Positions 4,036 through 37,162 of a DNA stretch of 64,000 bases are shown in pieces (within the stretch, counting starts at the first letter, position 1; each line of letters starts with the position of its first letter). The notes below the pieces were generated by a model, which was not told where the DNA came from, searched no databases, and worked only from the letters and a program-made list of their open reading frames with translations. The translations under genes were made by a program, and so were the position numbers. Source of the DNA: Dehalococcoidia bacterium. Its GTDB lineage: Bacteria; Chloroflexota; Dehalococcoidia; Plut-88900. The stretch lies in the NCBI GenBank assembly GCA_965207225.1, contig CBDBLV010000005.1, positions 1,184,001 through 1,248,000 on the forward strand, given 5' to 3'.

Positions 4036-4213
4036 TGGTTCCTCCGGGAGACGCTTGGATGCGATGCGGCCCCTATTCTAACGTTTGGGGGTCGGGGCTT
4101 GCCATAACCGAGGTGGGAACCGGCAGGAATCCCGGTATAGGCTTCGACAGGCGGGGTGGGGTGGGTATAATGGCGCGGTTGTCCGAGGTCCCCAAGCGTT
4201 CAGGATAGATGCC

Positions 4214-5344
4214 ATGACAGAAGAGAGGATCACCAACCTGCTGCCGGAGTTCGCTATTGGGTCGGCGGGGCTGGAGGCGGCATTCGGGGCGGCCTACTTT
4301 GGGGCGTCGATAATCGCGGGATTTCTCGTGTATTTCATCGTCACAAGGATAATCAGGACGGCCACGGGCAAGACCGGGACCTCCCTGGACGATAAGATTG
4401 TCGACGCCGTGGGACGGCCTGTGTTCCTGTTCGTGGTCTTGTTCGGCGCGTATGCGGGGTTGACCGCCTCGACCTTCCTTGACACTCACCAGGAGCAGGT
4501 GGACAGGGGCCTCCTCTCCGCCGTCATCGTGGTTGCGGGATACCTGGTCAGCCGCCTGGTGCATGCATTGATCGCCTGGTATGGCGCCGAGATTGCGAGC
4601 CGGACGGAGACGACGTGGGACGACAGGATTCTGCCGCTGATCGAGCGGGTGACCAACGCGATCATATTCGGGCTGGTGATAATGCTGGTGCTCCAGGCCC
4701 AGGGTCTGAACATCAGCCCGTTGATCGCCGGTCTGGGCATCGGCGGGTTGGCTGTGGCACTGGCGGTGCAGCCCACGCTGGCCAACTTCGTAGCGGGAAC
4801 GTACACGGTGACCGAGAGCGGGATATCCGTCGGGGACTTCATCGAAATAGAAGGCGGGCCATCCGGGTGGGTCGAGCAGGTGGGGTGGAGGACTACGAAG
4901 ATACGGACATTCTGGAACAACCGGGTGATTATTCCGAACGGGAAACTCTCGGAGTCTGTGGTGACCAACTACCAGGGCCCCGACCCCTCTGTCTATGCGC
5001 TGGTGAACGGGGGCGTCAGCTACGACAGCGACCTGCAGCACGTGAACGACGTGGCCCTGGAGGTCGCCCACGACGTACTGAGCAAGACCGAGAAGGCGGA
5101 CATGAGCTACGAGCCGGCGGTAAGGTTCAGGAATTTCGGGGATTCGAACATTGACTTCATGGTGATCTTCAAGGTGAAGGGCTACGTGGACCAGTTCCTG
5201 ATCAAAGACCAGATCATCCGGGGCATCCACAAGCGGTTTGGAGAGGAAGGGATAGAGATCAACTACCCGGTGCGGAAGCTGGTCTACCCGCATGAGGTGT
5301 CGGGTGGGGAGGGAGACGGGAGCCCCCCGATAAACGGGGCTTAG
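4214..5344 (+). CDS. mscS: Small-conductance mechanosensitive channel (MscS family)
   Basis: TM helices, AGLGIGGLAVALAVQ.TLANF.AG, GDFIE, IPN..L, GVSYDSD. Confidence 0.85.
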   Translation: MTEERITNLLPEFAIGSAGLEAAFGAAYFGASIIAGFLVYFIVTRIIRTATGKTGTSLDDKIVDAVGRPVFLFVVLFGAYAGLTASTFLDTHQEQVDRGLLSAVIVVAGYLVSRLVHALIAWYGAEIASRTETTWDDRILPLIERVTNAIIFGLVIMLVLQAQGLNISPLIAGLGIGGLAVALAVQPTLANFVAGTYTVTESGISVGDFIEIEGGPSGWVEQVGWRTTKIRTFWNNRVIIPNGKLSESVVTNYQGPDPSVYALVNGGVSYDSDLQHVNDVALEVAHDVLSKTEKADMSYEPAVRFRNFGDSNIDFMVIFKVKGYVDQFLIKDQIIRGIHKRFGEEGIEINYPVRKLVYPHEVSGGEGDGSPPINGA

Positions 5345-5394
5345 GGGCGAGGGCGCCGGGCGCCGACGGGGTATGCGGCTGTGGGGGCGGGGTT

Positions 5395-5468
5395 TTGATT
5401 GAACGTTGATTGAACATTGATTAAACGTTGATTGAACTCGTAGCTGGTTTGATTGAATGACGCCTAAA
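5395..5468 (-). repeat. Phased 11-bp direct-repeat array (TTGATTGAACN on +) with a conserved 45-bp block shared with 45666-45710
   Basis: TTGATTGAACG TTGATTGAACA TTGATTAAACG TTGATTGAACT...TTGATTGAATGACGCCTAAA. Confidence 0.85.
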
Positions 5469-5517
5469 GGGATTTCTGGGGATTTCGCGTGGTGCGGGGG
5501 ACACCCCCAGCCCCACA

Positions 5518-5662
5518 GGGGAACCCTCACCCCCTTGATCCCCCTCTCCCCCTCGAGGGACTCGGGGCAGGCTCTCAGGGCCATTGAGGGAGAGGGGGAG
5601 AGAAGAACAGAGGCGGAGGTTGGCGCAGAAGCGCCAACCTCCGCCTCTAGTTCAATACTGGG
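5518..5662 (+). repeat. Dispersed two-hairpin repeat with variable palindromic core, copy R1
   Basis: GGGAACCCTCACCCCCTT..TCCCCCTCTCCC...AGAAGAACAGAG-[palindrome 5609-5648]-CTCTAGTTCAATACTGGG. Confidence 0.85.
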
Positions 5663-5686
5663 AGAAGAAGACAGGACACCACCCCA

Positions 5687-5851
5687 GATTCCTCGCGGGG
5701 CATCGGAATGACAGTGTGAGGGGCGTTGGTTGGTGTTTGCGGTCCCGCGCCAGGGAGGAACCCCGCCCCGTTCCGCTCTTGAGACCCTTCGACTCCGCTC
5801 AGGGCGAGCGGAACCCCCACCCGTAGGTTCCCGATCGGGGCCGGGAATGAC
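5687..5851 (+). repeat. REP-like palindrome cluster
   Basis: GATTCCTCGCGGGGCATCGGAATGAC, CCCTTCGACTCCGCTCAGGGCGAGCGG and TTCCCGATCGGGGCCGGGAATGAC, each recurring elsewhere in the window. Confidence 0.8.
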
Positions 5852-5859
5852 GGTGTAAA

Positions 5860-6502
5860 AGGTCGGGGCGGTGGAGAGGGTGGGGTAGGCGATGGAAGAT
5901 CCGTGACCAGGGCGCAGGGGCCAGGGGGCCAGGCTGCGCCAGACCCGCAAGTCGGCAGGGCTAGAGGAAGTATCCCTTTGCGGCCTGTCCGTATGCGGGA
6001 GACGCTCTACCATTCGGAGGGATGGGAGCGCGAACTCTCCGCCGTCTCCGGGTGTAAGGGCATCTCCGAGAGATGAGACGGGGGAGTCCTGAAAGGGGTA
6101 TGAACCCCAGACGCTTTCAACCGTTCGGAGGGGGTCGGGCGTATCCTCCTTCCCGTCGCCGTAGTAAAGGGGAGTTCCGAGGGAAGCGACGGGGGAGTCG
6201 AGCCGGGGCGCGATGGCCTCCGGGGACCCGAGGGTGTCGGGTCGTCCCCCTGGCCTGTAGCCGGGGGTGAGTGCGCCATTAAGGTGGCGCAGACGCGGGA
6301 GGGACCTGGGAGACAGGTGTGCCGCGTGTGGTCGATGGACCTTCCATCGCCTGGTAGGAAAGGGTGAGGGGCTGAGGCGCGTGTCGGTGGCCGGGCGGTC
6401 GCGCAGCGTCCGGGTGCGACGTGAGCTGATCAGGCTGGTGCGTCTCATAGACTCCTTATTCCTTTCCTGTGATGGGCCCCGAGGTACGAGGTCGGTGGCC
6501 TG
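5860..6502 (-). ncRNA. Putative structured ncRNA, copy A of a three-copy family
   Basis: Sigma70-type promoter upstream; helix AGGAAAGG/CCTTTCCT; 16-bp long-range helix 6337-6352 with 5887-5902; two 77-nt modules inside; no credible protein. Confidence 0.55.
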
Positions 6503-6508
6503 GGGTGT

Positions 6509-6537
6509 AGTATAGCACGGGGGTTCAGGTAGGGCAA
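6509..6537 (-). promoter_or_regulatory. Sigma70-type promoter of element A
   Basis: TTGCCC-17 nt-TATACT with extended TG. Confidence 0.65.
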
Positions 6538-6573
6538 ATGTGCAGGTTGGGGGGGATGCCCCTCGACCCCCCA

Positions 6574-6713
6574 GGGGAACCCTCACCCCCTTGATCCCCC
6601 TCTCCCCCTCGAGGGACTCGGGGCAGGCTCTTAGGGCCTTTAAGGGAGAGAGGAGAACTAGAGGGCCACGGGAGTGCTGCGCACCCCCGTGGCCCTCTAG
6701 TTCAGTACTGGGG
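6574..6713 (+). repeat. Variable-palindrome repeat, copy R2
   Basis: Same flanks as R1, different hairpin (6655-6703). Confidence 0.85.
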
Positions 6714-6892
6714 AGAGGAAGGGGGGAGGAGGGAAAAAGCGTGAGTGGGCAAGTCCTAGATTCCTCGCGGGGCATCGGAATGGGATGGGAGAAGGGGGGT
6801 AGATTCAGGGTATGGGGGCGGGATGAGGGTGCTGCTTCGGTTCGCTATGCTAGACTCTAGCCTCGGCCACACTCGATTTCAGGAGGAGAGAT

Positions 6893-7525: not shown

Positions 7526-7662
7526 CTTCCCAAGGGGGATGCCGGGGAGGGCTGTGAGTTGTAGATATCGGGGTAGGTTTATGGATGGGCGTTGTAGATT
7601 CCTCGCGGGGCATCGGAATGGGAAGGAAAAGGAATCAGGATGGAAGGGGACGAGGAAAGGAG

Positions 7663-16032: not shown

Positions 16033-16152
16033 CAATGGTAAGGCAATAAAGCAAAACTGATTTGCAGTCCTTACTGTATTGCAATGCGCGTCCAATTGCC
16101 ACCCGCTTTTTACCGCGCCGGACTAACAAGTGATGTGAGCGGTTAAGTCCGA

Positions 16153-16400
16153 GATCCCTCGCGGGGCCTCGGGATGACATAGCGGAGGTGGGTGGCGGGG
16201 TGGATGTGGACGCAAGGGCAGGCATGGGCCTCTCCCCGCTCATGCTTCGAGAGCCTCAGCACGAGCGGCCTCACCGCCGGGGGGGCAGGCACGAGACCTG
16301 TCCCTACGGGGGATAGGACGGGATGCCACCCTATTCCGCTCTAGAGACCCCCTCGAGGGACTCGGGGCAGGCTATTCGACTCCGCTCGGGGCGAGAATAC
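16153..16400 (+). repeat. REP-like palindrome cluster
   Basis: GATCCCTCGCGGGGCCTCGGGATGAC, CTTCGAGAGCCTCAGC, GGCAGGCACGAGACCTGTCCCTAC, CCCCTCGAGGGACTCGGGGCAGGCT. Confidence 0.8.
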
Positions 16401-25379: not shown

Positions 25380-25423
25380 TGATTTCGTATGTAGGTTGCC
25401 TTGATCAGAAGGGAGAAGGGAAG

Positions 25424-26584
25424 ATGAAACAGGCTACATGGCAGTATTGCACGCTGGAGGAATACCAGGGCAGGCTGGATGCGCTGAGGGCTCGCATGGA
25501 GGCCAAGGGCGTGGACTGCATGATGGTGCACACGCCGGAGAACCTGTGCTACCTGACGGGATATCAAACGCCCGGCTACTACTGGTACCAGACCCTCATC
25601 GTGCCCATGGACCGGGAGCCGGTCTTCATCACCAGACTCCTCGAGAACTCCAACGTGGAGCACCTTACCTGGGTGGAGGACAGCCGGCCCTACGGTGACT
25701 CGGACGACTGGGTAAAGCAGACCAAAGACACACTTGTCGATCTGGGCATGGGGTCGAAGAGGATTGGGGTGGAGATGGGCTCCTGGTTCATAACCATCTC
25801 GGACTATCAACGTCTCCAGGGGATGCTGCCGGATGCACAGTGGGTGGACTGCTCGATGATGGTGGAAGAGGGCCGGATGATCAAATCGCCGCAGGAAATC
25901 GAGTACATCACGCAGGCGGCGAGGGCCACGGAGGCGGGGGTAGTGGCCGGCATCGAGGCCTCGGCGGTGGGGGCGACGGAGAATGAGGTAGCGGCGGCAG
26001 TGTATGCGGCGCAAATCAAGGCTGGCAGCGAGTACACGGGCCTGCCGCTGTTCGTAACGGCGGGCAAGAGGTCGTTCCTGGGCCACGTGACGTGGTATCG
26101 AGAGACGATTCAGGCGGGGGACACGGTGTTCCTTGAGATATCGGGGTGCATAAACCGGTATCACGCATCGCAGATGCGGAACGTGTACCTGGGGGACCCG
26201 CCGGAGGCGTCGGTAAGGGCGACGGGTGTGATGGCCACGGCCCTGGAGGAGATGATCAAGTTCATCAAGCCGGGGGTCAGGGCGCACGACGCCCACATGG
26301 TCTGCAAGAACGTTATCGGGGACGCGGGGCTGGGGGTAGAACTCAATCACCGGGCGGGATATTCCATCGGCATAGCCTTCGCACCTGACTGGGGGGAGGG
26401 CCACATCATCAGCCTGAACGAAGGCGAGTACCGGGAATTGCGTCCCGGCATGACGTTCCACCTGATCCCGGCGGTCTTCATACCGGGCCTGACGTCGGTG
26501 GGGGTGAGCGAGACGGTGCTTGTTACGGAGTCGGGGTGCGAGCCGATAACGGGGAACGTTGAGAGGAAGCTGTTTTCGAAGTAG
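25424..26584 (+). CDS. M24-fold hydrolase, ectoine hydrolase (EutD/DoeA)-like, paralog 1
   Basis: PEN..YLTGY, IKS..EI, H.TW, E..GC..RYH, GYSIG....PDWGE, GMTFH. Confidence 0.8.
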   Translation: MKQATWQYCTLEEYQGRLDALRARMEAKGVDCMMVHTPENLCYLTGYQTPGYYWYQTLIVPMDREPVFITRLLENSNVEHLTWVEDSRPYGDSDDWVKQTKDTLVDLGMGSKRIGVEMGSWFITISDYQRLQGMLPDAQWVDCSMMVEEGRMIKSPQEIEYITQAARATEAGVVAGIEASAVGATENEVAAAVYAAQIKAGSEYTGLPLFVTAGKRSFLGHVTWYRETIQAGDTVFLEISGCINRYHASQMRNVYLGDPPEASVRATGVMATALEEMIKFIKPGVRAHDAHMVCKNVIGDAGLGVELNHRAGYSIGIAFAPDWGEGHIISLNEGEYRELRPGMTFHLIPAVFIPGLTSVGVSETVLVTESGCEPITGNVERKLFSK

Positions 26585-26719
26585 GGGGTTGAGGGTGATC
26601 CCTCACCTTAAGCCTCTGCCAAGCCTACCCCAGCCCCCCGCTCATACTTCGAGAGCCTCAGCATGAGCGGCCCCACCCAATGGATGAATGGAGTTTATGA
26701 GTTGTAGGTAAAGAAAGAG

Positions 26720-27880
26720 ATGAAGAAACCGAACTGGCAGTATTTCGAGTTGGAGGAGTACCAGCGGAGGCTGGATGCTCTGAGGGGTCGGATGGAGGGG
26801 TTGGGTGTGGACGCGGTGCTCATCAACACCCCCGAGAACCTCTACTACCTTTCGGGATACCAGACCCCTGGGTACTACTGGTGGCAGACGCTGGTCGTGC
26901 CGATGGACCGGGAGCCGGTTTCGGTGACACGCCGGGTGGAAGATTCGAACATGCGGGAGCTGGGGTGGGTGGAAGATAGGCGGCCCTATGAAGATTACGA
27001 AGACTGGGTCGAGAAGACCCGGGACGTGCTGGTGGACCTGGGGCTTGGGGGGAAGACCATCGGGATGGAGTTGGGCAGCTTCTTCCTGCCAGCGAGGGAC
27101 TATCTGAAGCTGCAAACGCTGATGCCCGGCGCCCGGTTTGTCGACAGCACGGGACTTGTGGAGGCCGGACGGCTTATCAAGTCCCCTCAGGAGATTGAGT
27201 ACATGTGGCAGGCGGCCCGGGCGGCGGAGGCGGCAACACTGGCAGGTATCGAGGCGGTGAGACTCGGGGCAACGGAGAACGACGTGGCAGCGGAGATGCA
27301 CCTGGCACAGATCAAGGCCGGCAGCGAGTACACGGGCCTACCGATGTTCATAGCGTCGGGGGTGAGGTCTACGATGACCCACGCCACCTGGTACCGGAGA
27401 CCCTTGGAGAAGGACGAGGTGGTCTTCTTCGAGGTGCCGGGGTGCATAAACCGCTACCACGCAGCGATGATGCGAGAGGTCTACATTGGGGACCCGCCGG
27501 AGTGGATGTCACGAGGGATGGACGTGGTGACCGACACCCTTGCAAAAGCCAAAGAGAAGATCAAGCCGGGGGTCGTGGCTGGGGAATTGTTCGAAGAGAT
27601 CAAGGGGATGCTGGACTCGGCGGAGCTGGGGGCCAAGCTGGAGCGTCGGGCGGCGTACTCCATAGGCATAGCATTCGCGCCCGACTGGGGCGAGGGCCAT
27701 ATACTGAGCATAATGAGGGGCGAGGAGCGGACTCTCCAGCCGGGGATGACCTTCCACCTGATCCCCGGGGTCCGGGTGGTGGGGCTGGGGGGCATCCTGT
27801 GCAGCGACACGGTGCTTGTCACGGAGGACGGGTGTGAGACGTTGACGAGTGGGGTGGAGCAGAAGCTGTTTGTGAAGTGA
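26720..27880 (+). CDS. EutD/DoeA-like M24-fold hydrolase, paralog 2
   Basis: Same motifs, highly similar to its neighbours. Confidence 0.8.
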   Translation: MKKPNWQYFELEEYQRRLDALRGRMEGLGVDAVLINTPENLYYLSGYQTPGYYWWQTLVVPMDREPVSVTRRVEDSNMRELGWVEDRRPYEDYEDWVEKTRDVLVDLGLGGKTIGMELGSFFLPARDYLKLQTLMPGARFVDSTGLVEAGRLIKSPQEIEYMWQAARAAEAATLAGIEAVRLGATENDVAAEMHLAQIKAGSEYTGLPMFIASGVRSTMTHATWYRRPLEKDEVVFFEVPGCINRYHAAMMREVYIGDPPEWMSRGMDVVTDTLAKAKEKIKPGVVAGELFEEIKGMLDSAELGAKLERRAAYSIGIAFAPDWGEGHILSIMRGEERTLQPGMTFHLIPGVRVVGLGGILCSDTVLVTEDGCETLTSGVEQKLFVK

Positions 27881-28010
27881 GGGTAAGCGAGACGGAATGG
27901 CGGGAGTGAACCCCGCCCCCGCTCGACCCTTCGACTCCGCTCAGGATGAGCGGCCCCGCCGCCCCAGAGAAAATATACAGGAGTTATCTGTAAACGGGTA
28001 AGGAGTGAAG

Positions 28011-29186
28011 ATGAGAAAACCGAAGTATCAGTTCTTCACGCTGGAGGAGTACCAAGCTCGGCTGGACGCACTTAGGGGTCGGATGGAGCAGCGGGGGATC
28101 GACGTTTTGCTGGTGAACTCGCCGGAGAACCTCTACTACATCTCGGGGTACCAGACGCCAGGTTACTACTGGTACCAGACTCTGATCGTGGGGCTGGACA
28201 GGGAGCCGACCTTCGTGACGCGGCTAAACGAGGCTTCCAACATCGAACCCTTCTCCTGGGTGGAGGACAGCCGTCCATACGAAGACCACGAGGACTGGAT
28301 TGATCACACGCGGGTTGCGCTGGTAGACCTGGGACTGGCGGACAAGCGGGTCGGGCTGCAGTACGATTCATTCTTCCTGACCTCAAGGGACGAGAAGAGG
28401 CTGACGGCGGCGCTGTCCGATGCGACGTTCGTGGATGGGTCGGGGTTGGTGGAGGAGGGGCGGATGGTCAAGTCGGAGCAAGAGATCGAATATATCCGGC
28501 AGGCGGCGAGGACGGCGGAGGCGGGGCTGAGGGCGGGGATCGAAGCGTGCGCGGTCGGGGTGACGGAGAACGACGTAGCGGCGGAGATTCACCGGGCCCA
28601 GATAGCAGCGGGCAGCGAGTACACGGGCCTGCCCATATTCATCAGGACGGGGTCTCGAGACCTGATGACCCACTCGACCTGGTATCGCAACACCCTGCAA
28701 GCCGGAGAGAGCGTTACCATCGAGATGCCAGGATGCATCAACCGGTATCACGCGGCGACGTACCAGCAAATATATCTCGGGGACCCGCCGGAACTGCTGT
28801 TGAGGGCGCGGGAGGTAGGGGCAAAGGTGATGGCTGAGGCGAAGTCGGCGATAAGGCCTGGGGTGCCAGCCGGGGACATTCACAGGCTGGTTCAGGACAG
28901 TTTGGAGGAGGCGATGGGTGTCGGGAGCAAGCGGAACAGTCGGGCGGCGTACTCTATAGGCATCGCCTTTGCGCCCGACTGGGGGGAGGGGCACATCATC
29001 AGCATGACAGAGGGCGAGACACGGCCGCTGCAGGTCGGTATGACCTTCCACCTGTTGGCGGGCCACGTGGCCCTGCAGGGCCTGGACGGGGTGAAGAGGG
29101 CTGTGAACAGCGACACGATACTGGTAACGGAAGAGGGCTGTGAAACGCTAACGGACGGGTTGGAGCACAGGTTGTGGGTGAAGTAG
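28011..29186 (+). CDS. EutD/DoeA-like M24-fold hydrolase, paralog 3
   Basis: Same motifs; AAGGAG RBS before ATG 28011. Confidence 0.8.
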   Translation: MRKPKYQFFTLEEYQARLDALRGRMEQRGIDVLLVNSPENLYYISGYQTPGYYWYQTLIVGLDREPTFVTRLNEASNIEPFSWVEDSRPYEDHEDWIDHTRVALVDLGLADKRVGLQYDSFFLTSRDEKRLTAALSDATFVDGSGLVEEGRMVKSEQEIEYIRQAARTAEAGLRAGIEACAVGVTENDVAAEIHRAQIAAGSEYTGLPIFIRTGSRDLMTHSTWYRNTLQAGESVTIEMPGCINRYHAATYQQIYLGDPPELLLRAREVGAKVMAEAKSAIRPGVPAGDIHRLVQDSLEEAMGVGSKRNSRAAYSIGIAFAPDWGEGHIISMTEGETRPLQVGMTFHLLAGHVALQGLDGVKRAVNSDTILVTEEGCETLTDGLEHRLWVK

Positions 29187-30203: not shown

Positions 30204-30306
30204 GGGTCTGGGTTAACCCTCACCCCAGCCCTCTCTCGTAGAGGGAAATGCGGTTGGCCTTCTCCCCAGATTCCTCGCGGAGCCTCGGAATGACCGTTCG
30301 ATGGAG

Positions 30307-31467
30307 TTAACCGACGGTGGGGGCGGGAATGGTGAGATTGTAGAGGGCCAAAGCGTTTTCGCCGAGGATTTTGCGTTGGTCTGCTTCGGGGAGGTCTGAG
30401 ATGTGGGACTTGACCTTGCTGACGGGGTCGGTGTGGCCCTCGGGGTGGGGCCAGTCGGAGCCCCAGAGGAAGCGGTCGGTCCCGACTATGGGGGCGATGG
30501 CGCCCAGGGCTTTCTCGGTGGGTTCGGCACTGATCCAGCACTGGCGCTTGAAGTATTCGCTGGGCTTCATAGTGAGGATGGACTCGTGTCCGAAGCGGGA
30601 GAACTTGAAGTCGAGGAAGTCGAGCCAGTGGGCGATCCACGTGCAGCCGATCTCGACCATGGAGATGCGCAGCTCGGGGAACTTTTCGAAGACGCCCTCA
30701 GTCATCATGTTGGTGAAGGAGAGGAAGGGGTCGCCGAAGACCATGGACTCTACGAAGAAGTCGGGGCCGAGGCCCGGGTAGTCGGGGTAGAGGTGCTTGC
30801 CGATGTAGTCGGGGTTGAAGATGACGTGCAGGGTGACGGGCATGTCCAGCTCCTGGGCGGCGGCCCAGAATGGATCGTAGTAGGAGTCCCCGTACTTGAT
30901 GCCGTTCACGGGCGCTGGGCAGATGAAGGCGCCTTTCATACCGTCCCTAGCGGCGCGGTACAGCTCCGAGACGCCAAGCTCGACCTCCCTGACCGAGACG
31001 TGGGCCACGGGGTAGAGCTGGTCTGAGTGGTCCTTGCAGAACTCGACGAGCCAGCGGTTGTAGGCCCGGCAGTAGGCGTCGGAGATTTCGGCGTCTTTAC
31101 ACTCGGCCTCCCAGCCCAGGCCGAGGCTGGGGAAGAGGAAGGTCTTGTCGACGCCCTCCCTGGCCAGGTGCTTGATCCGTTCTTCGGGGTAGGCGGCGCC
31201 CGGGGCAAGGTTGGCGGCCTCGGCGTAGGGGAGGGGGAAGGTCCCCCTGACCCACTCGGGGTCCTTTTCGACGCCGGCGATACGGCCCAGGGCCCCGCCG
31301 TTGTAACCGCTGCTCATCTTGCCGTCGATGTCCAGGTATTCAAGGCCCTGGTCGTCTGCGTTGATGAACATGGCGCGGGATCGGTAGGCGGGGTCGATGT
31401 AATCACGCCACATGTTGGCGGGTTCAACGATGTGGCTGTCGGAGTCTACGACTGTTCCTCGTGACAT
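30307..31467 (-). CDS. Amidohydrolase_2 family metallo-hydrolase/decarboxylase
   Basis: DSDSHI.EP, AYNRWL, YDPFWA, FP.L....E, WGSDWPH. Confidence 0.88.
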   Translation of the reverse strand: MSRGTVVDSDSHIVEPANMWRDYIDPAYRSRAMFINADDQGLEYLDIDGKMSSGYNGGALGRIAGVEKDPEWVRGTFPLPYAEAANLAPGAAYPEERIKHLAREGVDKTFLFPSLGLGWEAECKDAEISDAYCRAYNRWLVEFCKDHSDQLYPVAHVSVREVELGVSELYRAARDGMKGAFICPAPVNGIKYGDSYYDPFWAAAQELDMPVTLHVIFNPDYIGKHLYPDYPGLGPDFFVESMVFGDPFLSFTNMMTEGVFEKFPELRISMVEIGCTWIAHWLDFLDFKFSRFGHESILTMKPSEYFKRQCWISAEPTEKALGAIAPIVGTDRFLWGSDWPHPEGHTDPVSKVKSHISDLPEADQRKILGENALALYNLTIPAPTVG

Positions 31468-31485
31468 GGCAGATGCTCCTTCCGG

Positions 31486-32649
31486 CTAGCCAACTGCGGG
31501 GGCCGGCACGTTCAGGCCGTACATGGCGAGGGCATTTTCGCCCAGTATCTTGTTCTGGTCGGCTTCAGGGAGGGTGGAGATGTTGGACTTTACCTTGTTG
31601 AGTGGGTCGGTGTGGCCCTCGGGGTGGGGCCAGTCTGAGCCCCACATCAGGCGGTCGGCCCCGACCATCTGGGCCACGGCCCCAATACCCTTCTCCACGG
31701 GCTCGGCGCTGACCCAGACCTGGCGGCGGAAATATTCGCTGGGGGTCATGGTGTGAGGCATGTCGAAGCTGAATCGGTCGGTCTTGAAGTCCATCATGTC
31801 GAGCCAGTGGAGCAGCCACGTGCAGCCGATTTCGACCATGGCGAGCTTGAGTCGTGGAAACTTTTCGAAGGTGCCGTCGCCCATCATGCAGGTGAAGCTG
31901 ATGAGGGGGTCGGCGAAGGTCATCACGTTGTTGAAGAAGACAGGCCCGAGGCCGGTCTCGTCTTCGGGGTAGGAGTTGCGGCCGGGGTAGTCGGGGTTCA
32001 GGACGACGTGGAAGGTGATGGGCATGTCCAGGTCTTGTGCGGTGGCCCAGAAGGGGTCGTAGTATTCGTGGCTGTAGCGGATGCCGTTCATGGGTGCGGG
32101 GCAGATGAAGGCGCCCTTCATGCCGTCCCTGGCTGCCCTTTCCAGCTCCTTTACCCCTTCGTTCACGTCCCGGACGGTAATGTGGGCGATGGGGAAGAGG
32201 CGATCGGGGTAGGGGGAACAGAAGTCGACGAGCCAGCGGTTGTAGGCCGTGCAGTAGGCGGCCGAGAGAGCGGGGTCTTCACACTCGGCTTCCCAGCCCA
32301 GGCCAAGGGTGGGGAACAGGAAGGTCTTGTCGACGCCTTCCTTGTCCAGGTGCCTGATCCTGGCGTGGGGGTCGACGGAGCCCGGGGCGATGTTCTTTAT
32401 CTCGTCGTAGGGGAGGGTGGGATGCTCCATCATCCACTCCCGGGTCTGGTCTATGCCGGCGATCCTGCCAAGGGTGCCGCCGTTGTATCCGATGCTGACC
32501 TTTCCATCAATGTCGAGGTACTCCAGGTCGAACTCATCGACGTTGATGCGGAGGGCACGGTCGCGGAACTGGGGGTCCATGTACTCCTGCCAGAGGTCGG
32601 CGGGTTCCATGATGTGGCTGTCTGCGTCGACGATTATGGAACGGGTCAT
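31486..32649 (-). CDS. Amidohydrolase_2 family protein (tandem paralog)
   Basis: DADSHI.EP ... WGSDWPH; very similar to the adjacent gene. Confidence 0.88.
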   Translation of the reverse strand: MTRSIIVDADSHIMEPADLWQEYMDPQFRDRALRINVDEFDLEYLDIDGKVSIGYNGGTLGRIAGIDQTREWMMEHPTLPYDEIKNIAPGSVDPHARIRHLDKEGVDKTFLFPTLGLGWEAECEDPALSAAYCTAYNRWLVDFCSPYPDRLFPIAHITVRDVNEGVKELERAARDGMKGAFICPAPMNGIRYSHEYYDPFWATAQDLDMPITFHVVLNPDYPGRNSYPEDETGLGPVFFNNVMTFADPLISFTCMMGDGTFEKFPRLKLAMVEIGCTWLLHWLDMMDFKTDRFSFDMPHTMTPSEYFRRQVWVSAEPVEKGIGAVAQMVGADRLMWGSDWPHPEGHTDPLNKVKSNISTLPEADQNKILGENALAMYGLNVPAPAVG

Positions 32650-33759: not shown

Positions 33760-36195
33760 TCAGGCGACTATGTTGACGAGGCGGCCGGGGACGTAGACTA
33801 CTTTGCGGGGGCCGTTCTTCATGAAGGCCCGTATTCGTTCGCTGGAGAGGGCTACTTCCTTGGCTTCATCCTCGGTGATGGCGGCGGAGACGGTGACGCG
33901 ATCCCGGACCTTACCGTTGACCTGCACCACGAGGGTCACTTCTTCCTCGGCGGCGAGGGACTCGTCCCACGCGGGGAAGGGCTGGTTGTGGATGCTGTAG
34001 TCGCAGCCTTGGGCGGCCCACAATTCCTCGGCGAGGTGGGGGGCGGTGGGGGCGAGCATGAGGAGCAGGGCTCTGATGGACTCGTTCCACGTTTCGCTGT
34101 CGACGGCACCTTCGTCCCAGGCCCGAGCCAGGTGGTTGGTGAACTCCATGAGTGAAGCGAGGGCGGTGTTGAAGTGGAACCGGTCGAGGTCCTGGTAGAC
34201 CTTCTTGACGGTCTTGTGGAGCATGTGGGCGGTCTGCTTCGATGACTGGCCCCTAGCTAGCTGCGGGTCTTTGTTCTCTACGAGGTCCCAGACGCGGTTG
34301 TACCAGCGGACGATGCCGTTGATGCCCTGGTCTACCCACTCACCGCCCTGGTCCCAGGGCCCGATGAACATGAGGTATCCGCGGACGACGTCTGCGCCGA
34401 CGGTGTCGACGTACTCATCGGGGGTGATGACGTTACCCCGAGACTTGCTCATCTTCTGCCTGTCGCTGATGATGATGCCCTGGTTGTAGAGCCTGACAAA
34501 GGGTTCGTCGAAGTCCAGCAGGCCGATGTCGCGGAGGGCCTTGACGAAGAATCGGGCGTAGAGGAGGTGCATGACGGCGTGCTCTGCGCCGCCGGTGTAC
34601 TGGTCGACGGGGAGCCAGTGCTTGATGTCCTCGGGGGTGAAGGCTGAGTCGCCGGAGTTGGGAGAGGCGTACTTGAGGAAGTACCACGATGAACACATGA
34701 ACGTGTCCATGGTGTCGGTCTCCCGTCGGGCGGGGCCTTCGCACTTCGGGCATGAAGTGTTCACGAAGGCTTCGTGGAAGGTGAGGGGTGACTCGCCGGT
34801 GGGCCGGAACTCGGCGTCCTCGGGGAGTAGGACAGGGAGCTGGCTCTCGGGGACGGGGACAATGCCGCAGGCGTGGCAATAGACCATGGGAATCGGGGCT
34901 CCCCAGTAGCGCTGGCGGGAGATCAGCCAGTCCCTGATGCGGTAGGAGATGGTGCCGCCGCCTATACCCTGCTCCTCCATGGCCTGGATGACGGCCTGCT
35001 TGCCCTCTTCGTTGGGCAGGCCGACGAACTGTCCGGAGTTGACCATTTCCCCGGGGCCAGTGTAGGCCTCGACGAGGTCTTCACCACCCCAGCCGGGCGG
35101 TGCGATTACCGTCCTGATGGGAAGGTTGTATTTCCTGGCGTAGGCGAAGTCCCGTTCGTCGTGGGCGGGGACGCCCATAACTGCGCCTGTGCCGTAGGTG
35201 AGGAGGGCGTAGTCGGCGATGAAGATGGGGACTTTTTCGCCGTTCAGGCGGTTGGTGCAGTAGGCCCCGATGAAGACGCCGGTCTTCTCCTTGTCGGCGG
35301 AGAGGCGTTCGATCTCGGAGCGGCGCCGGGTCTCTTCGATGTAGGCCTGGACCTCGTCGGACTTGTCGGCGGTTGTGAGTTGGGAGACCAGGGGGTGTTC
35401 GGGGGCGAGGACCATGAAGGTGACGCCGAAGACGGTGTCGGGGCGGGTGGTGAACACACGTATCTCCTTCGTGTCGAGTCCGTACTCCTCGATGCCGAAG
35501 GAGATCTCGGCGCCCTGGCTGCGGCCTATCCAGTTGGACTGCATGGTGTTGATGCGGTCGGGCCATTCGATGCTGGAGAAGTCGAGGAGCTCATCAGCGT
35601 ACTTGGTGATTCGGAAGAACCACTGCTCCAAGTCTCGGCGGGTTACGGCGGCGCCGCAGCGTTCGCAAGTGCCGTCGGGGAGGACCTGTTCGTTGGCGAG
35701 GGTGGTCTGGCAGGTCGGGCACCAGTTGGCGGGGGCCTTGTTGCGGTAGGCTAGGCCGGCGTTGAAGAGCTGGAGGAAGAGCCACTGGGTCCACTTGTAG
35801 TAGTCGGGGAGGGAAGTTACGACTTCACGGTCCCAGTCGTAGACGGCGCCGATGCGCTTGAGCTGGCGGCGCATGTTCTCGACGTTGCGCATGGTCCAGA
35901 TGTGGGGGTGGATGCCGTTCTTGATGGCGGCGTTCTCGGCGGGGAGGCCGAAAGCGTCGAAGCCCATGGGGTGGAGGACGTTGTAGCCCTGCATGCGGCG
36001 GAAGCGGGCGTGGACGTCCGAGGGGGCCATGGCGTACCAGTGGCCGATGTGGAGGTTCCCCGAGGTGTAGGGGAACATGGTGAGCTCGTACCACTTGGGC
36101 TTGTCGGGGTCTTCGTGGACGCTGTAGAGGGCGTCGGCGGCCCAGCGGTCCTGCCACTTGGTCTCTATGACTGTGGGGTCGTATTTGAGGGGCAT
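33760..36195 (-). CDS. leuS: Leucine--tRNA ligase
   Basis: MFPYTSG.LHIGH, FTTRPDT editing domain, KMSKS. Confidence 0.97.
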   Translation of the reverse strand: MPLKYDPTVIETKWQDRWAADALYSVHEDPDKPKWYELTMFPYTSGNLHIGHWYAMAPSDVHARFRRMQGYNVLHPMGFDAFGLPAENAAIKNGIHPHIWTMRNVENMRRQLKRIGAVYDWDREVVTSLPDYYKWTQWLFLQLFNAGLAYRNKAPANWCPTCQTTLANEQVLPDGTCERCGAAVTRRDLEQWFFRITKYADELLDFSSIEWPDRINTMQSNWIGRSQGAEISFGIEEYGLDTKEIRVFTTRPDTVFGVTFMVLAPEHPLVSQLTTADKSDEVQAYIEETRRRSEIERLSADKEKTGVFIGAYCTNRLNGEKVPIFIADYALLTYGTGAVMGVPAHDERDFAYARKYNLPIRTVIAPPGWGGEDLVEAYTGPGEMVNSGQFVGLPNEEGKQAVIQAMEEQGIGGGTISYRIRDWLISRQRYWGAPIPMVYCHACGIVPVPESQLPVLLPEDAEFRPTGESPLTFHEAFVNTSCPKCEGPARRETDTMDTFMCSSWYFLKYASPNSGDSAFTPEDIKHWLPVDQYTGGAEHAVMHLLYARFFVKALRDIGLLDFDEPFVRLYNQGIIISDRQKMSKSRGNVITPDEYVDTVGADVVRGYLMFIGPWDQGGEWVDQGINGIVRWYNRVWDLVENKDPQLARGQSSKQTAHMLHKTVKKVYQDLDRFHFNTALASLMEFTNHLARAWDEGAVDSETWNESIRALLLMLAPTAPHLAEELWAAQGCDYSIHNQPFPAWDESLAAEEEVTLVVQVNGKVRDRVTVSAAITEDEAKEVALSSERIRAFMKNGPRKVVYVPGRLVNIVA

Positions 36196-36243
36196 CCGGT
36201 GTTGCGGTCTCCTGTGCTGCGGGTCAGGTCTATGCAATGGGAG

Positions 36244-36272
36244 AAATTACCACGCAGGGGGTGGAGGCGCAA
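36244..36272 (-). promoter_or_regulatory. Probable leuS promoter
   Basis: TTGCGC-17 nt-TAATTT about 50 nt upstream of the ATG. Confidence 0.5.
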
Positions 36273-36309
36273 GGATGGGGGCTCGTTGGGGCAGGTTGGC
36301 GACCCGGCG

Positions 36310-36917
36310 GGTTATTCGGTTGTGGGGGCGGGGTTTCTGTTCTGTCTGTTGGGTTTTGGGTCGGCGATGGAAGGTCCGGGACTCAGTTTCAGGGGGCGGG
36401 AGGCCAGCCTGGTTCAGCCCCGTGTTCCTGTGTCACATGGCAGACAAGCGAGGGGATCTCGCCAGAGGGCGTCTCTACCACCAGTTTCTCAGTTTTCCTG
36501 GCCCACTCGGAGGGGTGGGGAGGTGTTTTCTCGCTGCCGTCGCTGGGTTAATGGGAATCTCCGAAGGGAACGACGGGGGAGATTTTCCAAGGGCCGTAAA
36601 GCCCGAGTTTTTCGGCAGGGCTCCTATATGAGGAGACGTGCCGCTTAATGTTGTGGACCTTCCATCGCCTGGATGGATGGGGAAGGAGCACGGGGCCCGT
36701 GGGGTGAGGAGATGGCGTCCCCGACGTCTCGGGGATGACGTATTCGCTTGTGCCGCAACCTGCCTGTCTCGTAAGGGGGGCGATTGGCCGGTCGCCTCCT
36801 ACGGGAAGGGAGAGGTCTTGGGATGGGCTAGGGCGTTGAGTCCTCGGTCGGGTCTCGGGGGCTTCCCTGGGTTTTTGGTTCCTCCTTTGCTGATGTGAGT
36901 TAGTGTTCGATCGGACG
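36310..36917 (-). ncRNA. Putative structured ncRNA, copy B
   Basis: Canonical promoter; leader AAGGAGGAACCAAAAACCCAGGGAAGCCCCCGAGACCCGACC shared with copy C; perfect 15-bp helix 36655-36669 with 36363-36377; one 79-nt module; tail GACCCAAAACCCAACAGACA shared with copy C. Confidence 0.6.
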
Positions 36918-36923
36918 CAGGAC

Positions 36924-36952
36924 ATGATAGTACGGTCGGACAGGTGTGTCAA
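36924..36952 (-). promoter_or_regulatory. Sigma70-type promoter of element B
   Basis: TTGACA-17 nt-TATCAT. Confidence 0.75.
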
Positions 36953-37075
36953 GAGCAAACGTACGGCTTTCTGAGGGGGATATCTGAACTGTGATTCGTG
37001 GGTTTGATGGATTCAGGGTCGGGGGTGGGGGGAGGGGGTGCGATGGGCTACGTGGATCTAGGGAGGGACGCGGTA

Positions 37076-37143
37076 GATTCCTCGCGGGGCATCGGAATGG
37101 GAAGGGGGGAGGGGGTGGGGGTTCCCAATTGTTCGGGAATGAC
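37076..37143 (+). repeat. REP-like palindromes at the left edge of the low-GC island
   Basis: GATTCCTCGCGGGGCATCGGAATG and TTCCC...GGGAATGAC. Confidence 0.75.
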
Positions 37144-37162
37144 GATGGAGAGAGAAGGGGGA

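What the first reader, a model, noticed from the sequence alone, without database searches (positions are those of the whole stretch)
6010..6197. Covarying 77-79 nt RNA module present twice in A (6010-6086, 6121-6197), once in B (36503-36581) and absent from C
Seen (transcript sense): CUCCC-CCGUCN...NGACGG helix with compensatory changes (CCGUCGC/GCGACGG, CCGUCUC/GAGACGG, CCGUCGU/GCGACGG), an internal small hairpin around UCGGA, a CCC.UUA linker, and a 3' CCCUCCGA that is complementary to the UCGGA(G) in all three copies. Inference: a discrete folding unit, possibly a pseudoknot or switch, such as an aptamer or protein-binding domain, whose copy number (2, 1, 0) partly explains the insert lengths.
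Basis: partly seen in the sequence, partly recalled or inferred. Interest (0 to 1): 0.7.

Follow-up and report, generated by a model that had tools for sequence, protein, structure and literature searches.

The report
Two-hairpin module of multicopy promoter-leader repeat
The repeated 77-79-base unit is a real two-hairpin RNA-like building block, but it belongs to an undescribed family of about 40 promoter-carrying structured repeats that sit in front of housekeeping genes in one genus of uncultured soil Dehalococcoidia, and it is not a free-standing sensor.

Summary
Observation confirmed. The three copies lie where stated on the minus strand, and element C (45211-45408, + strand) lacks the module. 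On 61 distinct copies from 8 genomes the CCGUCG/CGACGG helix is 98% paired, with three compensated columns. A second 4-bp hairpin, not noticed before, shows the CCCUCCGA in its loop and also covaries. The UCGGAG:CUCCGA pairing would then be a loop-loop contact. It is invariant, so it has no covariation support.

The module is one interchangeable insert (0-3 tandem copies; periods 102, 111 and 162 nt) inside a helix-closed core. That core is part of a larger dispersed cassette: near-consensus sigma-70-like promoter, SD-like leader, 15-16-bp closing helix, CA-rich tail. There are 31 canonical cores in this genome and 15-31 arm matches per strand in four relatives. Matches were found only in this genus.

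The downstream gene is co-oriented in 28 of 29 cases, and these genes are unrelated housekeeping genes (leuS, def, katG, nusA, rpsB and others). At orthologous loci the core type differs between species.

Best reading: a cis-acting, promoter-bearing structured leader cassette spread by recombination. It is not an aptamer. Expression is untested because no RNA runs were listed. This scan met the same family before on another piece of this genome (e1-4378031).

The parts
6509..6537 (-). Element A: promoter-like site TTGCCC-17-TATACT with TG before the -10
   Evidence: Scan (9 of 12 matches; 0.1 expected in shuffles). The same site is conserved in the A-type and 354-type copies.
6446..6457 (-). 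Element A: SD-like AAGGAG (6457-6452) and ATG (6448-6446) opening a frame with no stop through the whole element
   Evidence: Sequence. Frame 0 has 0 stops from the ATG to the 3' arm in 7 of 7 A/354-type copies. There is no codon-position bias in substitutions.
6337..6351 (-). Element A: 5' arm of the closing helix (GGCGAUGGAAGGUCC)
6121..6197 (-). Module copy A-up (77 nt)
   Evidence: E 1.2e-11.
6087..6120 (-). 34-nt spacer hairpin (CUGGGGUUCAUACCCCUUUCAG) between the two modules. Module plus spacer makes the 111-nt period.
6010..6086 (-). Module copy A-down (77 nt)
   Evidence: E 2.3e-13.
5888..5902 (-). Element A: 3' arm of the closing helix (one mismatch to the consensus)
5608..5649 (-). 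19-bp hairpin followed by a T-rich run. It is terminator-like and belongs to another repeat family. It lies between A and the convergent MscS gene.
   Evidence: The MscS gene at 4085-5344 (+) was identified by Pfam.
36924..36952 (-). Element B: promoter-like site TTGACA-17-TATCAT
   Evidence: 11 of 12 matches. The site is conserved in the 13 copies listed.
36870..36888 (-). Element B: SD-like AAAGGAGGAACCAAAAACC with no start codon after it
   Evidence: 39 matches in the genome at up to 3 mismatches.
36655..36669 (-). Element B: 5' arm of the closing helix
36503..36581 (-). Module copy B (79 nt). P1 strands are 36576-36569 and 36544-36537. Loop UCGGAG is 36564-36559. P2 strands are 36518-36515 and 36506-36503. 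Loop CUCCGA is 36512-36507.
   Evidence: E 6.0e-16.
36363..36377 (-). Element B: 3' arm of the closing helix
36312..36362 (-). Element B: CA-rich, G-poor tail ending in CCCCACAACCGAAUAA
   Evidence: The same motif stands about 132-134 nt before leuS in G004 and G005.
36196..36275 (-). Native leuS promoter-like region (TTGCGC-17-TAATTT) and 5' UTR. The leuS start codon is at 36195-36193.
   Evidence: conserved upstream of leuS in all 4 genomes shown, including G001, which has no cassette there. Read by eye; the scan did not call it.
45033..45470 (+). Element C: promoter-like TTGACT-16-TAAACT (45033-45060), SD-like 45092-45110, degenerate-arm core 45211-45408 without a module, tail 45409-45470
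   Evidence: The same core type sits upstream of leuS in G005.

Best explanation
The module is a two-hairpin sub-domain. A P0/P1 stem carries a roughly 25-nt loop containing UCGGAG. A 4-bp P2 stem presents CCCUCCGA in its loop. It is one of several interchangeable hairpin inserts inside the helix-closed core of a genus-specific, multicopy promoter-leader cassette.

Each cassette consists of five parts:
- a near-consensus sigma-70-like promoter;
- a leader with a perfect Shine-Dalgarno-like sequence (15 copies in this genome also carry an ATG and an open frame that shows no constraint on the protein);
- a 15-16-bp closing helix;
- 200-650 nt of modular hairpins enclosed by that helix;
- a roughly 55-nt CA-rich, G-poor tail.

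The cassette lies just upstream of, and points toward, unrelated housekeeping genes.

Shown here: the anatomy, the copy numbers, helix covariation in P1, P2 and the closing arms, the orientation bias, the restriction to one genus, conserved positions, and core exchange between species.

Inferred: the cassette is transcribed from its own promoter toward the gene. It then acts in cis as a structured leader or tandem promoter, affecting read-through, termination at the C-rich tail, or transcript stability. The module would be a structural or protein-binding building block, possibly held together by a loop-loop contact, and not a ligand sensor. Copies would spread and be homogenised by DNA recombination between the conserved leader, arms and tail.

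The confidence of 0.55 is for the whole statement. The part shown here (a sub-module of a dispersed promoter-leader cassette) I hold at about 0.9. The inferred cis-leader function I hold at about 0.45.
For: Family and anatomy:
- 31 arm pairs of 307-464 nt in this genome.
- Homology runs about 315 nt upstream and about 55 nt downstream of the arms.
- Promoter-like sites are called at 11 of 12 and 9 of 12 matches.

Module structure:
- Always found between arms.
- P1 is 98.2% paired with 3 compensated pairs; P2 is 89.3% paired with 2 of 4 compensated.
- In P0+P1 there are 71 G.U cells against 7 A.C cells. This favours folding of the C-rich strand, the one downstream of the promoter.
- Cores fold far better than shuffles (z -9.2 and -4.9).
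- Three arm classes keep pairing through changes on both arms.

Context and distribution:
- The downstream gene is co-oriented in 28 of 29 cases, while upstream genes split 14 same to 15 opposite (own gene-calling heuristic).
- Downstream genes are unrelated: leuS, glnS, pnp, gyrB, nusA, rpsB, def, katG and others (named from N-terminal sequence by recall; only MscS was checked by Pfam).
- Genus-restricted: BLAST found it in 8 of 8 genus genomes and 0 of 32 others. The covariance model found it in this genome plus 5 of 5 sampled genus genomes and 0 of 145 others. 70 of 78 exact 19-mer loci lie in 9 Dehalococcoidia MAG assemblies.
- Positions are conserved. 37 of 80 fetched loci have a downstream gene matching one of this genome's element-associated genes, 30 of them at 75% identity or more.
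- Core type differs at the same locus for def, katG, leuS, rpsB and glnS.

Known families:
- No Rfam family at gathering score in the window.
- Only hairpin-like sub-threshold matches at E up to 5.
Against: - No expression data. No RNA run was listed, so transcription, RNA ends and strand are inferred from sequence only.
- Both strands of the B-like core give the same RNAalifold energy (-84.4 and -83.7). On the 40 strand-neutral pairs, G.U outnumbers A.C only 23 to 8. A DNA-level palindrome is therefore not excluded.
- Covariation is modest. Copies are close kin: the effective sequence number of the model is 3.4, and only 5 of 69 predicted pairs in B-like cores are compensated.
- The arms are conserved in sequence, and their variants are often uncompensated (A10U in about 14 copies, T13A in 8). 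This fits protein or DNA recognition, or recent descent, as well as RNA pairing.
- leuS keeps its own promoter-like region, and one species (G001) has no cassette there. The cassette is therefore dispensable for that gene.
- Element A faces a convergent gene.
- The orientation bias could simply reflect selection against antisense transcription from a selfish, promoter-bearing insert.
Confidence: 0.55

Rival explanations
1. Selfish, non-autonomous mobile DNA in the MITE, BOX or Correia style. The inverted arms and hairpins would serve DNA-level mobilisation or simply persist. The promoter and orientation bias would be by-products of which insertions are tolerated. There would be no host function, and the module would be a boxB-like expandable unit.
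For: - Dispersed multicopy family with 85-92% identity between copies.
- 15-bp inverted arms conserved in sequence, with uncompensated variants.
- Modular units in 0-3 tandem copies.
- Presence/absence at the leuS locus among species.
- Restricted to one genus.
- BOX elements share the modular A-B(n)-C build, the independent folding of boxB and the open frames (passages of PMC3049150).
Against: - The repeat unit does not end at the inverted arms; homology extends about 315 nt upstream and about 55 nt downstream.
- No direct repeat flanks the arms (flank sequences).
- No longer copy carrying a gene was seen between arms. This was only checked as arm pairs up to 700 nt apart in this genome.
- Only 1 of 29 copies faces a convergent gene. 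BOX, RUP and SPRITE are over-represented between convergent genes (PMC3049150).
- 30 of 80 loci in sister species sit before the same gene at 75% protein identity or more, with promoter-like site and helices intact.
Confidence: 0.3
2. A family of free-standing, trans-acting structured RNAs of about 0.6-0.9 kb. Each would have its own promoter. The conserved closing helix, 5' and 3' hairpins and loop motifs would bind a common protein or target. Proximity to genes would be incidental.
For: - Own near-consensus promoter-like site.
- Conserved closing helix with variable inner expansions, as in large ncRNAs.
- A is followed by a terminator-like hairpin and is not upstream of a co-oriented gene.
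- Invariant loop sequences UCGGAG and CCCUCCGA on covarying stems.
Against: - No intrinsic terminator on the transcribed strand of the B unit.
- 28 of 29 copies point at the next gene.
- The inner content is swapped freely between loci and species. This is hard to reconcile with one conserved trans function.
- About 40 near-identical genes for one RNA would be unusual.
Confidence: 0.15
3. One reading: the module is an aptamer, switch or pseudoknot that senses a ligand or protein and controls the adjacent gene.
For: - Loops UCGGAG and CUCCGA are complementary in 95.6% of cells.
- Alternative pairings exist. GGAG-type sequences after P1 and the leader's GGAGG could compete for CCUCC (sequence).
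Against: - No covariation in the loop-loop pairing.
- The module is missing from 10 of 31 canonical cores and from element C.
- Copy number varies from 0 to 3.
- Downstream genes are unrelated.
- Module-bearing and module-less cores replace each other before the same gene, for example leuS and def.
- No Rfam family matched.
Confidence: 0.05
4. The ATG-led copies, including element A, are real protein-coding genes whose product contains the module as a 37- or 54-residue repeat.
For: - SD plus ATG is present.
- Frame 0 has no stop in the first 600 nt in 14 of 15 copies, against 1-10 stops in the other frames. Dinucleotide shuffles give P(no stop) of 0.02-0.08 per copy.
- The tandem periods 102, 111 and 162 nt are all multiples of 3.
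Against: - Substitutions are even over codon positions (690, 665, 691), and 24% of aligned columns are read in different frames in different copies.
- The frames run on through unrelated repeats. In A the frame runs antisense through the MscS gene, with no conserved stop.
- No Pfam or PHROGs match.
- The majority B type has no start codon.
Confidence: 0.05
5. Invertible DNA switch (inverton): the 15-bp inverted repeats are recombinase sites that flip the enclosed segment.
For: Identical inverted repeats flank 200-650 bp upstream of genes at many loci.
Against: - The enclosed segment has the same orientation relative to leader and tail in 31 of 31 copies here and in 78 of 78 distinct copies fetched from relatives.
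- The promoter-like site lies outside the repeats.
Confidence: 0.02

Closest known systems
BOX elements of Streptococcus pneumoniae and S. suis (boxA-boxB(n)-boxC; Croucher et al. 2011, PMC3049150; passages read)
   Same: - Dispersed intergenic composite repeat.
- Conserved end modules pair with each other.
- An inner module folds on its own and is present in 0 to several tandem copies.
- Long copies create open reading frames.
- Proposed to act through RNA secondary structure on co-transcribed genes.
   Different: - Here the unit is 0.5-0.9 kb and carries its own near-consensus promoter-like site, an SD-like sequence and a CA-rich tail.
- It points at the downstream gene in 28 of 29 cases, and only 1 copy faces a convergent gene. 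BOX elements are over-represented between convergent genes.
- Its inner content comes in several unrelated types.
- No sequence similarity to BOX was tested or expected.
Putative mobile promoters (Matus-Garcia, Nijveen and van Passel 2012; commentary PMC3575422 read, part 1 of 2, which holds the whole main text)
   Same: Highly similar upstream sequences (80% or more over 50 nt or more) in front of non-homologous genes within one genome. That paper also notes that such promoter regions can carry RNA motifs.
   Different: PMP is an operational class, mostly pairs of sequences. This is a family of about 40 copies per genome with a defined RNA-like architecture, and it occupies conserved positions across a genus.
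Correia elements of Neisseria (named in PMC3575422 and PMC3049150; further details recalled)
   Same: Inverted-repeat-bounded intergenic repeats. They can supply promoters and, when transcribed, fold into a hairpin that is cut by RNase III. They are a model for how the closing helix could work.
   Different: - Correia elements are about 100-155 bp, have terminal inverted repeats at their true ends and a TA target duplication (recalled).
- Here the inverted arms are internal to the repeat unit, and no duplication is seen.
Large structured bacterial RNAs found by comparative genomics (OLE, GOLLD, ROOL, raiA, HEARO; recalled, all in Rfam)
   Same: Hundreds of nucleotides, a multi-helix fold closed by a long-range helix, and variable peripheral hairpins.
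   Different: - None of them matched at Rfam gathering score in the window or in the listings at E up to 5.
- Those RNAs are usually single-copy and conserved across wide taxa.
- This family has tens of copies, is limited to one genus, and its inner content is exchangeable.

Membership tests
Any Rfam 15 family (riboswitches, T-box, OLE, HEARO, group II introns, ribozymes and others) | Covariance-model score at or above the family's gathering score | tested here: not met
   0 matches in the whole window. At E up to 5 there were only miRNA-like hairpin matches on flanking repeats, and one sR43 match at 11.5 bits.
MITE / Correia-type miniature transposon | Terminal inverted repeats | tested here: met
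   15-bp inverted arms, perfect in most copies.
MITE / Correia-type miniature transposon | The repeat unit ends at the inverted repeats and is flanked by a target-site duplication | tested here: not met
   Homology continues about 315 nt upstream and about 55 nt downstream of the arms. The bases next to the arms (..CCA | GAC.. or ..CCA | TAC..) are not direct repeats.
MITE / Correia-type miniature transposon | A parent insertion sequence with the same ends and a transposase | tested here: inconclusive
   No arm pair enclosing more than 700 nt was looked for beyond the list. Unpaired arms there belong to degenerate copies. Relatives were not searched for this.
BOX-like mosaic repeat | Conserved end modules with a variable number of an inner, independently folding module | tested here: met
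   0, 1, 2 or 3 modules at periods of 102, 111 or 162 nt. P1 and P2 lie within the module.
BOX-like mosaic repeat | Sequence homology to boxA/B/C | not tested
Putative mobile promoter | 80% or more identity over 50 nt or more upstream of non-homologous genes in one genome | tested here: met
   Copies are 85-92% identical over 400-690 nt. Only 5 pairs among 29 downstream proteins show any similarity.
Riboswitch / cis-regulatory aptamer | A conserved aptamer upstream of functionally related genes, kept at orthologous loci | tested here: not met
   Downstream genes are unrelated. The module is absent from 10 of 31 canonical cores. Cores are swapped at the def, katG, leuS and rpsB loci.
Invertible promoter (inverton) | Both orientations of the segment between the inverted repeats occur | tested here: not met
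   One orientation only, in 31 of 31 and 78 of 78 copies.
Protein-coding gene | Excess of third-position substitutions and a conserved frame | tested here: not met
   690, 665 and 691 substitutions at codon positions 1-3. 24% of aligned columns are out of frame.

The most novel reading that the evidence does not exclude
The cassettes form a genus-wide RNA-level wiring of some 30-40 housekeeping operons. A shared promoter, a helix-closed RNA scaffold and a CA-rich tail would put them under one common control, for example a protein that reads the invariant arms and loops, or Rho acting at the tail. The inner hairpin 'cargo', including this module, would be exchanged cassette-fashion between loci. 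The module's two loops imitate a Shine-Dalgarno sequence (GGAG) and its partner (CCUCC). In the ATG-led third of the family, selection would keep a stop-free frame while ignoring the encoded protein. Translation itself would then be the function: ribosomes melt the structure and protect read-through.
Probability: 0.15. Interest if true: 0.8.

Novelty: new variant of a known kind. Interest (0 to 1): 0.6.

Why it matters
If the cassettes are active, they show a way for a bacterial lineage to place dozens of unrelated essential genes behind one portable promoter-plus-structured-leader. The RNA modules inside could be swapped like parts. That bears on how regulons arise, on how 'junk' repeats become regulatory, and on the origin of large structured RNAs.

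The stop-free but unconstrained frames would be a rare case in which the act of translation, not the product, is under selection.

For annotation, these 0.5-0.9-kb units explain many long 'empty' intergenic regions and spurious long ORFs in these MAGs, such as the 900-codon frame over 4073-6775.

If they are merely selfish repeats, the finding is an ordinary, though unusually large and ornate, member of the BOX/Correia world.

Tried and rejected
- **RNA evidence.** The look-up of sequencing runs listed no RNA holder, so expression could not be examined.
- **Laying contigs.** Logan contigs of 4 DNA runs from 2 studies were laid on 35600-37400. This gave only short contigs broken at the repeat, plus 'skip' joints that look like paralogous copies. 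No strand-change joint was listed. This is uninformative for inversion or excision.
I tested the 134-residue antisense frame of the 367-405-nt subfamily. It had no PHROGs or Pfam match at E up to 1 (8 frames from 5 loci and the window). It had no tblastn match in 50,697 phage records. In this genome it hit only other element copies. It had no longer homologue in the 5.8-billion-protein set (which the tool itself calls weak evidence). So the claim was not reproduced for this frame. Other frames and the near-length search were not tried.
- **Extension of the closing helix beyond the arms.** Matched 5'/3' flanks pair no better than mismatched ones (mean 4.24 against 4.17 bp). Dropped.
- **Strand call from RNAalifold energies.** The two strands are equal, so this was dropped as an argument.
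- **Translational coupling of the ATG-led frames to the next gene.** Stops lie from -211 to +190 nt relative to the next coding-like start, and 6 of 15 have none nearby. No pattern.
- **DnaA boxes near the GC-skew turn.** 8 matches against 7.0 expected. Nothing.
- **Literature.** ('Dehalococcoidia' plus 'repetitive extragenic') returned 0 papers. One search returned 14,261 papers at 3 of 4 terms; the 8 listed were irrelevant. I saw no paper on this family, but these two searches are a thin basis for saying none exists. Supplements were not consulted.
- **Not used.** The metagenome contigs and viral-contig scans.
Full report
**What is at the coordinates.** On the minus strand, 6197-6121, 6086-6010 and 36581-36503 are three copies of one 77-79-nt sequence, with 84% mean column identity. 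Each lies inside a segment closed by a 15-bp inverted repeat, GGCGATGGAAGGTCC ... GGACCTTCCATCGCC. Element A is 5888-6351 (464 nt) and element B is 36363-36669 (307 nt). Scanning for the conserved leader and tail motifs found a third element, C, on the + strand. Its core (45211-45408) has degenerate arms and no module.

**The module's fold.**
- *Data.* nhmmer found 24 copies in this genome and 50 in the 80 loci I fetched from seven sister genomes. Those loci came from G001 (22), G002 (22), G005 (11), G006 (5), G007 (6), G008 (13) and G004 (1). The 74 copies collapse to 64 distinct sequences. 61 were aligned (A3); three copies from this genome were not held in any locus and were left out.
- *P1.* This helix (columns 6-13 with 39-46) is paired in 98.2% of cells. 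Three of its 8 pairs change on both sides: G-C to U-A in 8 sequences, U-A to C-G in 2 (with a U.G intermediate), and one more in 1. One position is U.G in 52 sequences. No shuffle out of 500 reaches the observed covariation score, and slid controls pair 31-67%.
- *P0.* This short outer helix (CUC with GAG) is 96.7% paired, but it varies only through G.U.
- *P2.* The 3' CCCUCCGA turned out to be the loop of a 4-bp hairpin: CCAC/GUGG, CCAU/AUGG or CCGA/UCGG. It is 89.3% paired, and 2 of 4 pairs are compensated.
It is complementary in 95.6% of cells. None of its 6 pairs covaries, and every change seen breaks it.
- *Strand.* In P0+P1, G.U cells outnumber A.C cells 71 to 7. This favours folding of the C-rich strand.
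- *Fold stability.* Single modules do not fold better than shuffles. Whole cores do: z is -9.2 for A, -4.9 for B, and -3.5 for the opposite strand of B.

**The module is part of a much larger repeat.**
- *Core classes.* The genome (4.03 Mb, 5 contigs) holds 31 arm pairs, in these size classes:
  - 14 of 307-311 nt (B type, one module);
  - 2 of 330 nt (no module);
  - 4 of 348-354 nt (one module);
  - 8 of 367-405 nt (no detected module);
  - 3 of 456-464 nt (A type, two modules).
- *Divergent copies.* A covariance model of the module (R1) finds 31 copies in this genome. The 7 extra ones are divergent. They sit in roughly 650-nt cores with variant arms and occur in tandem at a 162-nt period.
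- *Tandem periods.* Across the genus the periods are 102, 111 and 162 nt, with up to three copies in a row.
- *Extent of homology.* Similarity between copies does not stop at the arms. It runs about 315 nt upstream and about 55 nt downstream.
- *Upstream part.* It begins with a near-consensus promoter-like site: TTGACA-17-TATCAT in B (11 of 12 matches) and TTGCCC-17-TATACT with TG in A. About 45 nt later comes AAAGGAGG. In B-type and most other copies no start codon follows. In 15 copies, including A, an ATG does follow.
- *Downstream part.* This is a CA-rich, G-poor tail ending in CCCCACAACYGAAUAA.
- *Terminators.* No intrinsic terminator was found on the transcribed strand of unit B.

**Context.**
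- With my own crude gene caller (ORFs with GC3 > GC1 > GC2), the gene downstream of the element is co-oriented in 28 of 29 cases. Upstream genes split 14 same to 15 opposite.
- The one exception is element A itself. Its downstream neighbour is a convergent MscS channel gene at 4085-5344 (+) (Pfam).
- The 900-codon open frame at 4073-6775 is therefore not a gene. It is an open frame running through the element and then antisense through mscS.
- The downstream proteins are almost all unrelated to each other. By their N-termini (my recall, not a search) they include LeuRS, GlnRS, PNPase, GyrB, NusA, S2, peptide deformylase, KatG, MoaA and FBP aldolase/phosphatase.
- Several copies show a second promoter-like site between tail and gene.
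- For leuS, a TTGCGC-17-TAATTT site read by eye is conserved in all 4 genomes displayed, including G001, which lacks the cassette entirely.

**Distribution and dynamics.**
- BLAST with unit B hits 8 of 8 genomes of the genus, and 0 of 32 genomes from other genera of the family and class.
- The covariance model hits this genome plus 5 of 5 sampled genus genomes, and 0 of 145 others in the class.
- An exact 19-mer spanning the 5' arm occurs at 78 loci among 185,579 species genomes. 70 of these lie in nine 'MAG: Dehalococcoidia bacterium' assemblies; the other 8 are single hits in unrelated taxa.
- Four relatives hold 15-31 arm matches per strand, against 0 for the reversed control pattern.
- 37 of the 80 fetched loci have a downstream gene matching one of this genome's 29 element-associated genes, 30 of them at 75% identity or more. 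Positions are therefore conserved.
- The enclosed core nevertheless differs at the same locus:

| Locus | This genome | Relatives |
|---|---|---|
| def | 308 nt | 398, 394, 310, 311 nt |
| katG | 308 nt | 388, 311, 308 nt |
| rpsB | 354 nt | 421 nt |

- At leuS the cores are:
  - B type in this genome and in G008;
  - a 394-nt type in G002;
  - a roughly 400-nt type in G003;
  - a cassette with a degenerate 3' arm in G006;
  - a C-type core in G005;
  - a further type with arms GGCGAUGGAAGACGCC/GGCGUCUUCCAUCGCC in G004;
  - no cassette at all in G001.
- Three arm classes keep pairing through changes on both arms. Within the main class, mismatches are often left uncompensated.
- The core always has the same orientation relative to leader and tail: 31 of 31 copies here and 78 of 78 distinct copies in relatives.

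**The open frames.**
- In the 15 ATG-led copies, the frame set by the ATG has no stop in the first 600 nt in 14 cases. The fifteenth has switched to another open frame. The other two frames hold 1-10 stops.
- Dinucleotide shuffles give a 2-8% chance of a stop-free frame per copy.
- Substitutions between copies fall evenly on the three codon positions (690, 665, 691), and 24% of aligned columns are read in different frames in different copies.
- The frames have no conserved end and no Pfam or PHROGs match.
- This agrees with the earlier scan note on another copy (e1-4378031): the frame is kept open while the residues drift.
- All three tandem periods of the module are multiples of three, which fits.
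- I could not reproduce that note's terminase origin for the frame I tested.

**What it most likely is.**
- *Solid:* the anatomy, the numbers, the distribution and the exchange of cores.
- *Supported by real but modest covariation:* these are RNA-level structures of the C-rich strand. The evidence is P1, P2, the arm classes, the G.U excess, and the position downstream of a strong promoter-like site. The copies are close kin; the model's effective sequence number is 3.4.
- *Weak points:* the two strands of B-like cores give equal RNAalifold energies, and only 5 of 69 predicted pairs in those cores are compensated. That alignment (A4) held 43 sequences, 8 from this genome and 35 from relatives. 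Seven cores from this genome that were not in a locus, and one 330-nt core, were left out.
- *Function, by inference:* a promoter-bearing cis leader placed in tandem with native promoters. It would affect read-through, termination at the C-rich tail, processing at the closing helix, or message stability. The module would be a structural or protein-binding insert.
- *Main rival:* a selfish, BOX- or Correia-like repeat whose orientation bias only reflects which insertions are tolerated.
- *Disfavoured:* an aptamer or switch, a protein-coding gene, and an inverton, each by tests run here.

**Comparison with what is known.**
- No Rfam family matches.
- The nearest described things are the pneumococcal BOX elements, the operational class of 'putative mobile promoters', and Correia elements.
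- BOX elements have end modules plus a variable number of an independently folding boxB, and large copies form open frames (PMC3049150, passages).
- Putative mobile promoters are described in PMC3575422 (main text read).
- Correia elements are named in both papers.
- This family differs in five ways: its size; its own promoter-like site, SD-like sequence and tail; arms that are internal to the repeat unit; its strong co-orientation with downstream genes, where BOX is enriched between convergent genes; and several unrelated, exchangeable core types.
- I therefore class it as a new variant of a known kind. My literature check was thin.

Noticed in passing
window 5682-5722, 6754-6794, 7592-7632, 16148-16188, 30264-30304, 37071-37111; opposite strand 44594-44644, 44775-44825, 45465-45515: A separate short REP-like repeat, core (A)GATTCCTCGCGGGGCATCGGAATG. 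It is a small hairpin found in many intergenic regions, often next to the cassettes (families D7, D12 and D13).
   Followed up: no
window 5596-5659, 6653-6710 and many other loci in the genome: A long-hairpin repeat (..CAGTACTGAACTAGAGGC[stem]GCCTCTGTTCTTCTCTCCCCC) that looks like a mobile intrinsic terminator. The scan calls it a terminator at 5649-5608, and it gives the miRNA-like sub-threshold Rfam matches. It is usually followed by the 94-nt repeat D8 (5504-5597, 6560-6653, 44866-44959).
   Followed up: partly
window about 44000: GC skew of the + strand changes sign (+0.15 to +0.3 before about 44 kb, -0.17 to -0.39 after). leuS and elements A and B lie on the minus strand before it, and element C on the plus strand after it. 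The coding/transcribed strand is thus C-rich here, the reverse of the usual purine excess. There is no DnaA-box cluster.
   Followed up: partly
window 25422-29066 and 30308-32263: Three tandem paralogous units of about 1.29 kb (67-81% identity) and two of about 1.18 kb (75-80%) (families D1-D6, D16 and D18). They are probably tandem gene duplicates. They may relate to the oxidoreductase expansion noted for this genome in e1-3115415.
   Followed up: no
window 44479-44774: Two tandem copies of a 182-nt unit at 90% identity (D10), each ending in the REP-like hairpin, just upstream of element C.
   Followed up: no
window 38001-40000: A dip in G+C to 0.50 against about 0.61 elsewhere, over ORFs 37163-40687 on the minus strand. 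Possibly foreign DNA.
   Followed up: no
L019:1135-1536 (G000:C5:104961-105362) and the other 367-405-nt cores: This module-less core type has a frame open on the strand opposite to the promoter over the whole core in one copy (134 codons). A stretch (GDGRSGT..QD..GTYADA.GIGG) recurs between copies. No homologue was found.
   Followed up: partly
relatives, alignment A4 columns 60-85 (e.g. L035, L037, L105): B-like cores of several sister species carry an extra 26-nt hairpin (..GCCCCGCTCACGCCGGGC..) that is absent from all B-type cores of this genome. This is another insert-or-delete hairpin module.
   Followed up: no
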